NCBI GenBank assembly: GCA_963764725.1
Contig: CAVXTM010000001.1
Location: 64,001 to 128,000, forward strand
DNA: 64,000 nucleotides
Origin: an uncultured Gammaproteobacteria bacterium
Lineage (GTDB): Bacteria; Pseudomonadota; Gammaproteobacteria; JACCXJ01
Reading direction: 5' to 3'
In this document: one piece after another, positions 27,054 to 62,634 of the stretch
How positions within the stretch are numbered: position 1 is the first letter of the stretch
Layout of the letters: each line of letters starts with the position of its first letter
Translations under genes and position numbers: made by a program
The notes under the pieces: model-generated
Told to the model about the DNA's origin: nothing
Database searches by the model: none
What the model saw: the letters and a program-made list of their open reading frames with translations, nothing else

Positions 27054-27157
27054 GAGATTCTCCTTGCATGATTACTAGCATCGCATTTAAAAACATCGCC
27101 TGCTCCGGGAATCGCAGATGCACCGACCGCCGCCGTCTTTCCCCGGGCTGGTGTCAA

Positions 27158-27198
27158 ATCATACCCAAAATCTGATACGCGAAGGTGGTCTGGGTCAA
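27158..27198 (-). promoter_or_regulatory. Class II FNR promoter with degenerate box
   Basis: GTGGTCTGGGTCAA (27185-27198) and TATGAT (27158-27163), same spacing as at 7543-7583. Confidence 0.55.
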
Positions 27199-27291
27199 GC
27201 CGGGCTAGCGATGCCCCGAGGCCTGCACGCAGCCCCGGCTGGGTACGGTCGAGGGCCTGCATTTGGGACTTCTCATCGTGTAGGAAAGTAT

Positions 27292-27500
27292 ATGACTGAC
27301 CAAATCAAAACCGCGCCGACGATCCTTCGGCGCAAACAAGTGGAAGCCCGCATCGGACTCTCGCGGACAACGCTTTATCTTCTCATCTTCAAAGGAACAT
27401 TCCCTCTCCAGGTGAAGCTTGGCGGGCCGCATGCGGTCGGCTGGATCGAAAGCGAGATCGAGGCTTAGCTGTCCCGACAAATTGAACAAAGCCGAAATGC
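27292..27500 (+). pseudogene. AlpA-family regulator/excisionase with premature stop
   Basis: ILRRKQVEARIGLSRTTLY...GTFP..VKLG..AVGWIESEIEA*LSRQI; TAG where Trp is expected. Confidence 0.85.
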
Positions 27501-30023: not shown

Positions 30024-30057
30024 AGAGTCGTCTTATCCGAGAGGATAAGACGACTCT
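30024..30057. terminator. Perfect 15-bp hairpin, probable terminator
   Basis: AGAGTCGTCTTATCC-GAGA-GGATAAGACGACTCT. Confidence 0.7.
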
Positions 30058-30152: not shown

Positions 30153-30314
30153 ATTCCTTCCCTCCTACCGAGGCTACGATACGATATTAAACCGCCGCAC
30201 GTTGCCATGGAACGCAATTCTTATGGGCATCATATTAATTGTATGCCGAGAATCATCATTATCAAGCCATCGTTAGCACAAATTTAGCTGCTACCCCAAG
30301 CAAACTGATTTTTC

Positions 30315-31820
30315 GGTGTTGTTTCAGTTTGAATTTCGGCTTACGACCCCTTGCAGACGCTCACTGGAGATGGAAGCTGACATTCATGTGGACCTCGTGA
30401 CGACATGGACCTTCTTCTGTTGAAGGCCCAAAAGCTCGGATCAGTCCGATTTCCTCACTGGTCCAGCCTTATCGGTACACTCCAGCCAACACGTCAGGGG
30501 TATGCGGCCGCGACGCCCGCCTTGTGCTCCTCGCGCATCCCAGCCTCAAGGCTGTCGAGCCAGTCCAACAACGCATCCCAACTGCGCAGGCTGAATGCCT
30601 CCACACCATAGCGTTTCTGGAGATTTACCGTCGGCATACAGACAAGGCCGGCCATGAAAATGTCGATCACGATGGCGTCGCAATACGGCGCATACAGCGA
30701 GATGTGCTTGATGTCCTCAAACACGCCCTTCAAGCGCTGGCGCGCTTCTTTTCGGTTCGAGAACGTACCACGCTTTACCATTTCCCGCATCGTCGCGAAC
30801 ATGTGCGACGAGAGCCACATGTACGGCACCTCAGCAAAGTGCGGTGATTGGAAGAAATCTATACAGCGCCGGACGCGTTCCGGGAGCGGTTGATCCTTCG
30901 GCAGGCAATACATCATGTGCTCCATCACCTTTGCGACCATGGGCGAATTGATGGCGGCGTTGAAGTCACCCTCAGCGTAGCGCTTGATCATCGTGAGATA
31001 CGTGTGCACGTACTGGCGGCCTGCATCATGAATTTCCAAGGCCACGGCTTCGTTAAAAGTCTGAGTTGAGACCTGCCACTGGTCGAGCACCTTGACCAGT
31101 TCGTCCACCGCCTCTTCCTTCAACCGACGCTTCAACTCAATATCGCACATGTAACCGCCAACATCGATGCGGAAGTAGCCGTCCCATTTGTCCAGGGCAC
31201 CCTGGATGGCATCCCGGTCTTCAACGATGTACTCCGGCGGCTGGTCCTTCAAGAATGCCTCCCAGGCTTTCAGCACCTGCTTGCGTTCTACGTTGTAGTG
31301 CTTCTCGAACTTTACGCCGCGCGACGTGGCTTTGATGAATTCCATTAGCTGATCCTCGTGGCCCCGCCACTGGTGCGTTTCGTCTTCGTGAACCGAAGAA
31401 TATGGAGCGACGAGCAGCTGCAGGCGGCACATTCGCTTGACGCGCTCAGTGGCTACTTTGAAGCGCGGGTCTTTTCTGCGCAACGCACCGGAGAAAAAGA
31501 ACTGGTCGAGGTAAATAACCTTCTTGCGGATCTCTGGCAGCCACACAACGCGCTGGTATTGGCAGTACTTACAGCCTCGGAGGACATATTCGCGCACTGA
31601 GACATTGCCGAAGCTGTCCTTCGCCCCGCACCCAGGGCAATCGCCAAGCACTCTAGTCACCAGCATCGCTTCCGGTTTCCGTCGGTTCTGTCGTCAAGAT
31701 CCCCCGGGTCCAACCATCCAACATAGTTTAGCGGGAGATCGTCGCTGACCGTCAGCTATCGGGCAAGACTCTCAAGGTCCGGTCATGGCCGATAGCCGAA
31801 ATTCAAACTGAGACACTACC
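30315..31820. mobile_element. Non-autonomous transposon / mobile insertion cassette, 1506 bp
   Basis: 27-bp TIRs (24/27) GGTAGTGTCTCAGTTTGAATTTCGGCT; exact 8-bp flanking repeat GATTTTTC at 30307-30314 and 31821-31828; no transposase. Confidence 0.85.
30494..31666 (-). CDS. Hypothetical protein, N-terminal Zn ribbon plus PIN-like acidic motifs
   Basis: CPGC...CKYC; VIYLDQ; HEDE; DIKH...APYCDAIVID. Confidence 0.7.
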   Translation of the reverse strand: MLVTRVLGDCPGCGAKDSFGNVSVREYVLRGCKYCQYQRVVWLPEIRKKVIYLDQFFFSGALRRKDPRFKVATERVKRMCRLQLLVAPYSSVHEDETHQWRGHEDQLMEFIKATSRGVKFEKHYNVERKQVLKAWEAFLKDQPPEYIVEDRDAIQGALDKWDGYFRIDVGGYMCDIELKRRLKEEAVDELVKVLDQWQVSTQTFNEAVALEIHDAGRQYVHTYLTMIKRYAEGDFNAAINSPMVAKVMEHMMYCLPKDQPLPERVRRCIDFFQSPHFAEVPYMWLSSHMFATMREMVKRGTFSNRKEARQRLKGVFEDIKHISLYAPYCDAIVIDIFMAGLVCMPTVNLQKRYGVEAFSLRSWDALLDWLDSLEAGMREEHKAGVAAAYP

Positions 31821-31851
31821 GATTTTTCTAACCACACGTCAGTAGGCGCAG

Positions 31852-60777: not shown

Positions 60778-62634
60778 TTACACCGCGAGGCGGGCGAGCC
60801 GCCGGCCTCCGTACAGAAGATTGATCGCGGCGCGCGTACCGGCGATGGCGGTGAACATCGAGGTCACGATTCCGAGCGACAGGGTCACCGCGAAGCCTTT
60901 CACCGGACCGGTCCCGAACGCAAATAGGACGAGGGCCGCGATGAGGGTGGTGAGGTTGGAATCGGCGATGGTGGCGAAGGCCTTCTCATAGCCAGCGTTG
61001 ATGGCGGCCTGAGGGGTGGTGCCGTTGCGCAGTTCCTCGCGGATGCGCTCGAAGATGAGCACATTGGCGTCGATCGCCATGCCCACCGTCAACACGATGC
61101 CCGCGATGCCAGGCAATGTCAGGGTCGCCTGCAGCAGCGACATCAGCGCGAGCAGCAGCACCAGATTGAGCACCAGCGCGAGATCGGCCACCAAGCCGAA
61201 GACCCCGTAGTACACGGCGGTAAACAACAGCACCAGCGCGAAGCCGACGACGGCCGCGTTGTAGCCCATCGTGATGTTGTCTTGGCCGAGACTCGGTCCC
61301 ACCGTGCGCTCCTCGATGATCGAGATCGGCGCGGCCAGCGCTCCGGCGCGCAGCAGGAGGGCGAGGTTCCGCGCTTCCTCGGTGCTATCGAGCCCCGTGA
61401 TCTGGAAGCGCTTGCTCAGTTGCTCGCGAATGGTGGCGATATTGATGACTTCCTCGACTGTTTTCTTTACCCTGATGGTCTCATTGCCCTTCTTCTGCGT
61501 GTCGATTTTGGTCTCGATGAAAACCACGGCCATGGGCCGCCCGACGTTATCGCGGGTGGCGCGGCTGAAGATGCGCGCGCCTTTGCCATCCAAGGTGATG
61601 AAGACGGCCGGGCGATTGTCGACCGAGTCCAGGCCCGAGCTCGCGTCGATGATGTATTCGCCGGTCAGCATCACCTGGCGTTTCAAGAGGACCGGTTCGC
61701 CCTCGCGCGTCCGATAGAGCTTAACGCCCGGCGGCGTCTTACCTTCGACGGCGTCCTGCGGGTCGTGTTCCTCATCCTGCATGCGGAATTCGAGGGTCGC
61801 GGTCGCGCCGAGGATTTCCTTGGCCCTAGCCGTGTCTTGCACACCCGGCAATTGCACGACGATGCGATCCACGCCCTGCTGTTGGATGATGGGCTCCGCT
61901 ACGCCGAGCTCATTGACGCGGTTGCGCAAGGTGGTGAGGTTCTGTTGCAGGGCAAGCTTGCGCGTCTCGCGGATGTAATCCTCCTTCAAGCTCAGTCGCA
62001 GCGCGCTGCCCTCTGGATCATCCTCGGGCACAAGCTGGAGATCACGAAATTCATCGTCGATCAGCCTTTCGGCCTCGGCTAGACTGGCTGCATCGCGCAA
62101 GGTCACGAGGATCCCGCGGCCGGCCTCGCGCGCGATGGTCTTATAGCGGATCTTTTTCTCGCGCAGCGCCGAACGCAGATCGGAGACAAAGCGTTCTTCG
62201 GCCATGCGCACGACCGCCTCCATATCGACCTCCATCAAGAAATGCACGCCGCCGCGCAGATCCAAGCCGAGGTACATGGGCTTGGCGCCCAGCGCTTGCA
62301 GCCACACGGGGGTCGCGGGCGCTAGATTCAAGGCCACCACATAGTCTGGCCCGAGCGCCGCCGCCACGGCATCATTAGCCTTGAGCTGCGCCTCGGTATC
62401 GGCGAAACGCACCAGCAGGCCGCGCGCATCGCGCTCGAGGGCCAGGGGTTTCAATTTGGCTTCCTTGAGCGCGGCGCGCACCTTAGTTTCCAGAGCCTCA
62501 TCGAGCGGTGCGGACCGCACTGTCGAGATCTGAAGGGCGGGGTGCTCCCCGTAGAGATTCGGCAGCGCATAGAGCACCCCGAGAACGATAATGCCCAAGA
62601 TGAGCAGGTTCTTCCATAAGGGATAGCGATTCAT
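60778..62634 (-). CDS. secD: Protein translocase subunit SecD
   Basis: LGLDLRGGVHF, RNRVNELGVAEP, GPSLG, DANVLIFERIREE. Confidence 0.98.
   Translation of the reverse strand: MNRYPLWKNLLILGIIVLGVLYALPNLYGEHPALQISTVRSAPLDEALETKVRAALKEAKLKPLALERDARGLLVRFADTEAQLKANDAVAAALGPDYVVALNLAPATPVWLQALGAKPMYLGLDLRGGVHFLMEVDMEAVVRMAEERFVSDLRSALREKKIRYKTIAREAGRGILVTLRDAASLAEAERLIDDEFRDLQLVPEDDPEGSALRLSLKEDYIRETRKLALQQNLTTLRNRVNELGVAEPIIQQQGVDRIVVQLPGVQDTARAKEILGATATLEFRMQDEEHDPQDAVEGKTPPGVKLYRTREGEPVLLKRQVMLTGEYIIDASSGLDSVDNRPAVFITLDGKGARIFSRATRDNVGRPMAVVFIETKIDTQKKGNETIRVKKTVEEVINIATIREQLSKRFQITGLDSTEEARNLALLLRAGALAAPISIIEERTVGPSLGQDNITMGYNAAVVGFALVLLFTAVYYGVFGLVADLALVLNLVLLLALMSLLQATLTLPGIAGIVLTVGMAIDANVLIFERIREELRNGTTPQAAINAGYEKAFATIADSNLTTLIAALVLFAFGTGPVKGFAVTLSLGIVTSMFTAIAGTRAAINLLYGGRRLARLAV

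What the first reader, a model, noticed from the sequence alone, without database searches (positions are those of the whole stretch)
30307..31828. Transposase-free 1.5-kb mobile cassette with TIRs and an exact 8-bp target duplication
Seen: 27-bp inverted ends (24/27), GATTTTTC repeated exactly on both sides, one passenger ORF and no transposase. Just inside the ends are related short motifs (GGCTTACGACCCCTTGCAGAC left; GGCTATCGGCCATGACCGGAC and GCCCGATAGCTGAC right, minus strand) that may be a second layer of recombination sites for cargo capture. Known: GG-starting TIRs with 8-bp duplications occur in IS6 and IS256/ISKra4-type elements. Inference: a non-autonomous single-gene shuttle mobilised in trans; the strongest candidate for an undescribed system here.
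Basis: partly seen in the sequence, partly recalled or inferred. Interest (0 to 1): 0.8.

Follow-up and report, generated by a model that had tools for sequence, protein, structure and literature searches.

The report
Transposase-less IS1-type gene cassette (MIC)
This is a real 1.5-kb mobile cassette that carries one gene of unknown function and no transposase, and it uses the ends of an IS1-family insertion sequence, so it is a new example of a known kind of element, the mobile insertion cassette.

Summary
Window 30315-31820 (1506 bp) has 27-nt inverted ends (24/27) and an exact 8-bp duplication, GATTTTTC. It carries one 390-aa ORF and no transposase.

Two congeners (G006, G008) have the uninterrupted site with a single GATTTTTC, so the cassette inserted by transposition.

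The same ends occur 15 times in this genome, in 8 of 8 congeneric genomes, and in many phyla. They mostly bracket unrelated cargo: toxin-antitoxin pairs, AbiV-like, PDC-S39 and NERD proteins, enzymes, and a 148-bp MITE.

In a minority of elements the same ends, with exact 8-bp duplications (8 of 8), enclose a ~300-aa HTH+DDE transposase. Pfam (DDE_Tnp_IS1) and PGAP place it in the IS1 family. One congener (G003) has an intact copy. The window's own genome has none.

The element is therefore a mobile insertion cassette (MIC) of an IS1-family transporter IS, mobilised in trans and now probably stranded. It is not IS6, IS256 or ISKra4, and it is not an undescribed system.

The cargo belongs to a conserved, sporadically distributed hypothetical family. 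It has an N-terminal zinc ribbon and a helical body, with no fold match.

One point is unexplained and mildly novel. Orthologous sites in sister species hold the same ends but unrelated cargo, and cassette-type ends share a sub-terminal motif absent from the transposase-bearing copies I examined.

The parts
30307..30314 (.). Left copy of the 8-bp target-site duplication, GATTTTTC
   Evidence: The sequence is single-copy at the orthologous empty site in G006:C95 and G008:C10.
30315..30341 (+). Left terminal inverted repeat, 27 nt, with 3 mismatches to the family consensus GGTAGTGTCTCAGTTTGAATTTCGGCT
   Evidence: The consensus comes from 9 ends in the own genome and 82 ends from other genomes.
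30342..30364 (+). Left sub-terminal region of the 'B-type' form (..TACGACCCCTTGCAGACGCTCA). It is semi-conserved among cassette-type ends.
   Evidence: The region is also kept in the 90%-identical relative L207, whose outer TIR has decayed.
30365..30493 (-). Non-coding stretch downstream of the cargo gene, part of the cassette
   Evidence: It aligns at about 90% with metagenome locus L207 together with the ORF.
30494..31666 (-). Cargo gene of 390 aa: N-terminal CxxC..CxxC zinc ribbon plus a helical body. It belongs to a conserved hypothetical family and is not a transposase.
31752..31799 (.). Right sub-terminal imperfect inverted repeat, 15 of 18 (TCAGCTATCGGGCAAGAC / GTCATGGCCGATAGCCGA). It includes the 'A-type' motif GGCTATCGGCC and lies upstream of the cargo start codon.
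   Evidence: I5
31794..31820 (-). Right terminal inverted repeat, 27 nt. It is identical over all 27 nt to the left end of the transposase-bearing element in L133.
31821..31828 (.). Right copy of the 8-bp target-site duplication, GATTTTTC

Best explanation
Window 30315-31820 is a mobile insertion cassette (MIC): a non-autonomous relative of an IS1-family 'transporter IS'.

An HTH+DDE transposase of about 300 aa, encoded by an autonomous relative, recognises the ~27-nt ends (GGTAGTGTCTCAGTTTGAATTTCGGCT). It moves whatever lies between them and makes staggered cuts 8 bp apart in the target, which after repair give the GATTTTTC duplication.

Shown: the ends, the duplication, the empty site, the lack of a transposase inside, and the same ends around IS1-family transposase genes elsewhere, with the same 8-bp duplication.

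Inferred: the cassette was mobilised in trans. It entered this lineage after its split from G006, G008 and G003. It is now stranded, because this genome encodes no matching transposase.

The cargo is a stand-alone accessory gene of unknown function. By association with the cargo of sister cassettes (toxin-antitoxin pairs, AbiV-like, PDC-S39, NERD) a defence or addiction role is a guess, not a finding.
For: (1) Ends and duplication.

(2) Empty site: G006:C95 and G008:C10 read ...caaactGATTTTTCtaaccac... without the element.

(3) Family of same-ended elements. There are 15 ends in G000. Exact 8/8 duplications flank the C1 and C7 elements and the C10 58785/75095 pair. The ends were found in 9 of 41 relatives searched, that is the own genome plus 8 of 8 congeners and 0 of 32 genomes of other genera. 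The 20-mer core gave 94 stretches across phyla.

(4) Transposase. A recurrent ~300-aa protein lies inside the same ends in 7 of 80 loci. DDE_Tnp_IS1 scores 25.7, 32.2 and 24.7 bits against a cut-off of 24.1. The D..D..E residues are invariant (D69, D141, E208). The VERxNLxxR..FSKK block aligns with E. coli InsB. PGAP names the 61-68% identical plasmid homologues 'IS1 family transposase'.

(5) All 8 of 8 transposase-bearing elements examined have exact 8-bp duplications.

(6) An intact copy exists in the genus: G003:C198, a 2810-bp element whose first 19 nt of TIR are identical.

(7) The cargo is not a transposase. It has no family hit. The model is mostly helical, pLDDT 81.9. Foldseek gave 0 matches at E<=0.001 in PDB or BFVD. 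None of 80 homologue loci carries these ends.
Against: No mobilisation experiment exists.

No matching transposase was found in the window's own genome. PF03400 gave 0 hits. tblastn gave only a 65-aa, 32-35% match on C16. The genome is 96.9% complete in 19 contigs.

The NCBIfam IS1 equivalog model is not reached (47.8 and 69 bits against a cut-off of 100), so the transposase is a divergent IS1 branch.

The transposase-bearing copies examined share only the first 19-27 nt with the cassette ends. They lack the sub-terminal CGRCC-N4-6-CGGYCAYT motif of cassette-type ends. The true cognate partner may therefore not have been seen.

The left TIR has 3 mismatches to the consensus.
Confidence: 0.87

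Rival explanations
1. The 390-aa zinc-ribbon protein is itself a new kind of transposase, and the element is autonomous.
For: It has an N-terminal CxxC..CxxC ribbon of the sort many transposases carry. It has no known family or fold, so a new enzyme cannot be strictly excluded.
Against: It is single-copy in the genome. None of 80 homologue loci in metagenomes has these ends. It is present in 1 of 400 class genomes, the own genome only. Other same-ended elements carry unrelated cargo. The predicted fold is almost all helical, with no RNase-H-like sheet. A bona fide IS1-family transposase sits inside the same ends elsewhere.
Confidence: 0.03
2. It arrived as a transposase-bearing IS and lost its transposase gene by deletion in place, so it never moved as a cassette.
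For: Autonomous relatives carry passenger genes beside the transposase, so one deletion would yield this layout.
Against: A 90%-identical copy in an unrelated metagenome contig (L207) already has the same junction of left sub-terminal region, spacer and ORF. Dozens of cassettes in many taxa share the cassette-type ends that the transposase-bearing copies I examined lack. A 148-bp MITE with an exact 8-bp duplication shows that transposase-less forms do move. L207 ends before the right side, so a transposase once lying there cannot be excluded.
Confidence: 0.06
3. The ends are sites of a site-specific recombination system (integron-like or Xer/dif-module-like) rather than transposon ends.
For: Orthologous sites carry different cargo between conserved ends. 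Cassette ends carry a small sub-terminal palindromic motif.
Against: Exact 8-bp duplications of unrelated sequence flank many elements, and the empty site holds one copy. That is the mark of DDE transposition, not of site-specific recombination. No integrase or recombinase is linked to the ends in the cassettes examined.
Confidence: 0.04

Closest known systems
Mobile insertion cassettes (MIC231 of Bacillus cereus; the qnrD and qnrS2 mic elements; Tn3-like MICs of Xanthomonas)
   Same: Two inverted repeats bracket passenger gene(s), no transposase lies inside, and a target duplication is present. Mobilisation by the transposase of a related IS is supplied in trans. The definition and the MIC231 precedent come from passages of PMC3913671. 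The Xanthomonas MICs are known to me only from the listing and abstract of PMC4337579.
   Different: The ends here belong to an IS1-family element, not to IS231 (IS4 family) or Tn3. The duplication is 8 bp. The cassette family is very large and crosses phyla, and it has a sub-terminal motif of its own. No trans-mobilisation has been shown for it.
IS1 family, single-ORF members carrying passenger genes ('transporter IS', tIS)
   Same: The autonomous partners have one ~300-aa HTH+DDE ORF that matches DDE_Tnp_IS1. Their ends begin GGTnnTG, as do both ends of E. coli IS1A taken from NC_000913. They make an 8-bp duplication and carry passenger genes beside the transposase. The tIS concept comes from a passage of PMC9330008. 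That ISfinder has a single-ORF IS1 subgroup reaching several kb is my recollection only.
   Different: The window's element has no transposase. The transposase branch falls below the NCBIfam IS1 cut-off and has no InsA/InsB frameshift arrangement.
MITEs
   Same: They are non-autonomous, TIR-bounded and carry a target duplication. A 148-bp member of this same family is seen in L095 with an exact 8-bp duplication.
   Different: MITEs carry no gene; this element carries a complete 390-aa gene.
IS6, IS256 and ISKra4
   Same: Their ends start with GG and they make 8-9 bp duplications (recalled).
   Different: The transposase found inside these ends scores only 18-21 bits against a cut-off of 125 for the IS6 model. 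The one IS256-type transposase in this genome has its own, unrelated ends.

Membership tests
Mobile insertion cassette (MIC) | Bracketed by two inverted repeats | tested here: met
   24 of 27 complementary; 36-nt arms at 83%; 0 of 100 shuffles matched
Mobile insertion cassette (MIC) | No transposase gene inside | tested here: met
   There is one ORF. It has no Pfam, NCBIfam or PADLOC family, a helical model and no fold match.
Mobile insertion cassette (MIC) | Target-site duplication showing insertion by transposition | tested here: met
   GATTTTTC on both sides; a single copy at the empty site in G006 and G008
Mobile insertion cassette (MIC) | Ends match those of an autonomous IS whose transposase can act in trans | tested here: met
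   The right end is identical over 27 nt to an end of the transposase-bearing element in L133, and over 19 nt to the congeneric element in L186. This is a sequence match only.
Mobile insertion cassette (MIC) | Mobilised in trans in an experiment | not testable with these tools
   Needs a transposition assay
IS1 family (for the autonomous partners) | Transposase with the IS1-type DDE domain | tested here: inconclusive
   Pfam PF03400 is just above its cut-off (25.7, 32.2 and 24.7 bits against 24.1). NCBIfam NF033558 is below its cut-off (47.8 and 69 against 100). PGAP names the plasmid homologues IS1 family. The catalytic E block aligns with InsB.
IS1 family (for the autonomous partners) | Ends of the form GGnnnTG (form recalled; IS1A ends read from NC_000913) | tested here: met
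   9 of the first 12 nt are identical between one IS1A end and the window's right end
IS1 family (for the autonomous partners) | Duplication of 8-9 bp (range recalled) | tested here: met
   Exact 8 bp in 8 of 8 transposase-bearing elements
IS1 family (for the autonomous partners) | InsA/InsB two-frame arrangement of classical IS1 | tested here: not met
   A single continuous ORF of about 295-310 aa, so this is a single-ORF branch and not classical IS1
IS6 / IS256 / ISKra4 | Cognate transposase associated with these ends | tested here: not met
   The IS6 model scores 18-21 bits against 125. The IS256-type gene on G000 C15 has different ends. ISKra4 was not tested with a model.
Integron cassette / Xer dif module | Site-specific recombination sites, no target duplication, linked recombinase | tested here: not met
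   8-bp duplications of unrelated sequence; no recombinase in the cassettes examined

The most novel reading that the evidence does not exclude
These ends define a cross-phylum family of IS1-type cassettes in which the cargo between fixed ends is exchanged in place. Sister species hold the same insertion, to the nucleotide and in the same orientation, yet with unrelated cargo starting about 43-47 nt inside each end. Cassette-type ends share a small sub-terminal palindromic motif (CGRCC-N4-6-CGGYCAYT) that the transposase-bearing copies I examined lack. If that motif is the crossover or binding site of a dedicated cargo-swapping step, this would be a transposon-borne, integron-like way of shuffling defence and addiction genes.
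Probability: 0.18. Interest if true: 0.65.

Novelty: new member of a known kind. Interest (0 to 1): 0.35.

Why it matters
As a single locus it is ordinary: a stranded mobile insertion cassette.

Three things make it worth recording. First, it ties a very widespread, unannotated 27-nt repeat to the IS1 family, so many 'orphan' inverted repeats in Proteobacteria, Acidobacteriota and other genomes can now be read as MIC or MITE ends.

Second, most elements with these ends appear to lack a transposase. A transposase was seen in only 7 of 80 loci, a figure limited by the 8-kb off-centre windows. Their cargo is rich in toxin-antitoxin and defence-like genes. The ends could therefore serve as a cheap flag for finding new accessory or defence genes, such as this 390-aa zinc-ribbon family.

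Third, the same-site, different-cargo pairs pose a concrete and testable question about how cassette contents turn over.

Tried and rejected
ORF as transposase. Rejected.

IS256-type partner. A Transposase_mut gene lies 1.3 kb inside a solo end on G000 C15. Its own inverted ends are unrelated and it interrupts another gene. Rejected.

IS1182-like partner. In G001 several ends are followed by an identical multi-copy sequence that breaks the assembly. A full copy in G008:C49 shows it is a separate IS with its own ends and no cassette TIR outside them. It inserts into the cassette ends and does not mobilise them. Rejected as the partner.

Search for a transposase-bearing copy whose ends carry the cassette-type sub-terminal motif. 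None was found in the 8 autonomous elements, in plasmids with a 55-nt cassette end (2 weak, unannotated hits), or in five genomes that hold such ends. Of those five, G415 and G416 have cassette-type ends and no transposase match, and the G414 match has no recognisable ends nearby.

Inner, decayed TIRs that would indicate a composite of two MITEs. None was detected with the end profile in the window's element, and my by-eye check of the stretch before the inner A-motif gave 8 of 24, which is random.

Cargo function. There were no PDB sequence hits and no fold hits. The Atlas returned only 'hypothetical protein' clusters. No neighbour was conserved in 80 loci. The 116 immediate neighbours are heterogeneous: 3 phage-type integrases, 2 rve, 2 PIN. 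The promoter and terminator scan of the element was at chance level.

Base composition shows no anomaly.

Literature. No paper in the searchable library prints the end sequence (three strings, 'anywhere' match, 0 papers). 'ISMhu11' returned no paper (0 occurrences in the two papers listed). I did not see ISfinder or TnPedia, so the name of the autonomous IS there is unknown to me. Supplementary files were not consulted.

Claims resting on UNPUBLISHED genomes (G001, G002, G005, G007, G008):
- the G008 empty site (the G006 one does not depend on them);
- elements L057 and L058 (G008), L068 and L069 (G001), and the end in L046 (G005);
- the PDC-S39, ankyrin and AbiV cargo calls;
- the transposase fragments in G001 and G008;
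- the IS1182-like copies in G001 and G008;
- the L057 side of the same-site comparison;
- five of the eight congeners in the 8-of-8 count.
Full report
1. THE OBSERVATION.

GATTTTTC lies at 30307-30314 and again at 31821-31828. Just inside are 27-nt ends, 30315-30341 (GGTGTTGTTTCAGTTTGAATTTCGGCT) and 31794-31820 (reverse complement GGTAGTGTCTCAGTTTGAATTTCGGCT). They agree at 24 of 27 positions.

The repeat finder extends the arms to 36 nt at 83%.

The element is 1506 bp and holds one long ORF, 30494-31666 on the minus strand, 390 aa. Base composition is unremarkable.

2. IT INSERTED BY TRANSPOSITION.

A 4.5-kb query spanning the locus found both flanks adjacent in congeneric genomes. Read out, G006:C95 and G008:C10 run straight from the left flank through a single GATTTTTC into the right flank. 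G003:C359 has a small deletion at the spot. G001:C140 has a different 580-bp insert just upstream and a single GATTTTTT.

G008 and G001 are unpublished; G006 and G003 were not flagged as such.

3. A FAMILY OF SAME-ENDED ELEMENTS WITH UNRELATED CARGO.

The window is G000:C1:64001-128000. A profile of the ends finds 15 ends in the 4.2-Mb genome.

Paired ends in G000:
- C7 67624-72986, 5.4 kb, duplication GAGACATC 8/8. Cargo is a PPIase, DUF3604 and an unknown 393-aa protein.
- C10 58785 with 75095, duplication TGTGATGA 8/8, plus an inner right end at 61226 (7/8). This encloses a NERD+SEC-C protein.
- C18 333958-339495, 5.5 kb, only 5/8. It carries a 919-aa protein with weak PDC-M54A/Avs4 similarity.

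These rest.

Solo ends lie beside a XamI restriction-modification pair, a Fic/DOC protein and others. None of the cargo proteins resembles the window's ORF.

The end motif was found in the own genome and in 8 of 8 congeners, and in 0 of 32 genomes of other genera among the 41 relatives searched.

Seven further paired elements in congeners, 977 to 4291 bp, all lack a transposase. They carry:
- TacA-like antitoxin plus a GNAT protein (L060, L068);
- PrlF/YhaV (L062);
- HEPN_AbiV (L069);
- a DUF7380/DUF4209 protein matching PADLOC PDC-S39 at E 1e-235, plus ankyrin proteins (L057);
- unknowns.

These rest. Their duplications are 8/8 (L069), 7/8 (L056, L057, L068), 6/8 (L058), a 7-nt shifted match (L060) and none (L062).

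4. THE AUTONOMOUS PARTNER IS AN IS1-FAMILY TRANSPOSASE.

An exact scan of one genome per species with the 20-nt core of the end returned 94 stretches (80 loci kept). They come from Alpha-, Beta- and Gammaproteobacteria, Acidobacteriota, Planctomycetota, Binatota and others.

I examined 20 paired elements from these loci. A ~300-aa protein recurred next to one end in L105, L133, L159 and L170, with a fragment in L121. tblastn finds it in 7 of the 80 loci. The loci are 8-kb off-centre windows, so 7 is a floor.

Family evidence for this protein:
- It matches Pfam DDE_Tnp_IS1 just above cut-off and has an N-terminal HTH.
- It matches the NCBIfam IS1 model best, but below cut-off.
- It keeps an invariant D..D..E.
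- Its VERxNLxxR...FSKK block aligns with InsB of E. coli IS1A.
- Its 61-68% identical homologues on plasmids of Hoeflea, Acidiphilium and Mesorhizobium loti are named 'IS1 family transposase' by their annotators.

The transposase-bearing elements are 2.5 to 3.8 kb and carry passenger genes too. All have exact 8-bp duplications:
- L105 CGCATTTG
- L133 AAACGAAC
- L159 CAGTCTCG
- L170 AATTTGTG
- L121 AGATCGCG
- L186 CCGGCCCG (all six)
- Acidiphilium multivorum NZ_CP041717.1 AAGCCGAG
- M. loti CP050295.1 CGCTGGTG

The window's right end is identical over 27 nt to the left end of the L133 element. The ends also begin like those of IS1A read from NC_000913, with 9 of the first 12 nt shared.

Within the genus, one intact copy exists. 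It is G003:C198, a 2810-bp element with a 308-aa ORF and a 352-aa passenger, and the first 19 nt of its TIR are identical. G001 and G008 hold only fragments.

The window's own genome has none. PF03400 finds nothing, while the control genomes respond. tblastn gives only a 65-aa, 32-35% match on C16.

5. THE CARGO.

The 390-aa protein starts with a CxxC...CxxC ribbon. It has 623 homologues at E<=0.001 among the candidates scored. The best 120 are 56-100% identical, all 'hypothetical', and none has a Pfam domain. Many residues are invariant, including the four cysteines.

The AlphaFold model is confident (pLDDT 81.9, pTM 0.81). It shows a small beta ribbon followed by helices. No PDB sequence matched. 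No PDB or BFVD fold matched at E<=0.001. The Atlas returned only unnamed clusters.

The gene is sporadic: 1 of 400 genomes sampled from the class, the own one only. In 80 metagenome loci encoding homologues, none has these ends and no neighbour is conserved. The neighbours are a mixed accessory set.

One contig, L207, is about 90% identical from the left sub-terminal region through the ORF. Its outer TIR has decayed. The cassette architecture on that side therefore predates the insertion seen here.

6. HOW IT WORKS.

The best reading is a mobile insertion cassette. The IS1-type transposase of an autonomous relative binds the ~27-nt ends and moves the segment, giving an 8-bp duplication.

[quoted passage not shown] Both come from passages of PMC3913671. 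'Transporter IS' for IS that carry passenger genes comes from a passage of PMC9330008.

Shown: anatomy, empty site, shared ends, linked transposase. Inferred: trans-mobilisation, and present-day immobility in G000.

7. WHAT REMAINS ODD.

(a) Conservation is near-total to position 27 and then falls off. The wide set was selected on positions 7-26, so that part is by construction. Cassette-type ends nevertheless share a loose sub-terminal motif, CGRCC-N4-6-CGGYCAYT, at about positions 30-48. It appears in this genus and in Rhizobium, Mesorhizobium and beta-proteobacterial records. The 8 transposase-bearing elements lack it.

Most cassettes pair an 'A' form (GGCTATCGGCC) with a 'B' form (GGCTTCCGACCC). 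By my reading, this holds for all four G000 pairs and for L056, L062 and L069.

(b) Orthologous sites hold different cargo. L056 (G006) and L057 (G008) have flanks 92-94% identical, and the homology runs 43 and 47 nt into the two ends. Then 2.9 kb and 4.2 kb of unrelated cargo follow. L060, L068 and L062 show a related but messier case.

In-place cargo replacement is the simpler reading, but I have no mechanism for it.

No recombinase or intermediate supports it.

8. VERDICT.

This is a real, well-supported MIC of an IS1-family element. The kind is known, and this particular family of ends appears unreported in the searchable literature. It is of modest interest as a locus. It is more useful as a key to a widespread class of unannotated cassettes and their cargo.

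Noticed in passing
G000:C18:647508 (L024 about 2008 onward); G001 contig ends (L027, L066, L070, L071); L096 1565-1851; reference copy L088 (G008:C49): A separate IS1182/IS5-like IS sits immediately after about position 30 of the cassette end in several independent places and genomes. It has a transposase of 407+106 aa, frameshifted in the G008 copy, and its own ~20-nt ends. In G001 it is multi-copy and breaks the assembly. It looks like an IS that targets the ends of another transposon, as IS4321/IS5075 do with Tn21 ends (recalled). The evidence rests largely on unpublished G001 and G008.
   Followed up: partly
L056 (G006:C32) vs L057 (G008:C88); L060 (G006:C125), L068 (G001:C68), L062 (G003:C373): The same chromosomal site and the same ends carry unrelated cargo in sister species. 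Homology stops 43-47 nt inside each end. In G003 a decayed TIR-like remnant sits at the old junction.
   Followed up: partly
L095 6035-6182 (record CALLNA010000167.1): A 148-bp MITE with the same ends and an exact 8-bp duplication, AGCTTTTT. It folds into a long hairpin.
   Followed up: partly
G000:C15:231200-232453 (L025 3301-4554): An IS256-family (Transposase_mut) IS with its own ends is inserted into a gene. That gene lies inside a region bounded by a solo cassette end at C15:229930.
   Followed up: partly
G000:C10 61226 and 75095: Two right ends have similar downstream flanks (TGTGATAAcggcggcgcc vs TGTGATGAcgacggcgct). This suggests a duplication of end plus flank, or two nested states, with 13.9 kb between them.
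   Followed up: no
window 30024-30057: A perfect 15-nt hairpin with a 4-nt loop (AGAGTCGTCTTATCC / GGATAAGACGACTCT) lies in the intergenic region left of the cassette (I4). It may be a terminator or operator of the upstream gene.
   Followed up: no
window 27118-27468 (+): The C-terminal half of this small ORF reads like an AlpA-type phage/island regulator. This is recalled resemblance only and was not scanned. It hints at another mobile or island boundary about 3 kb to the left.
   Followed up: no
G000:C15:66317 onward (L023): A solo cassette end lies next to an alpha/beta hydrolase and a XamI-type restriction enzyme with an Eco57I-like methylase. No partner end was found.
   Followed up: no
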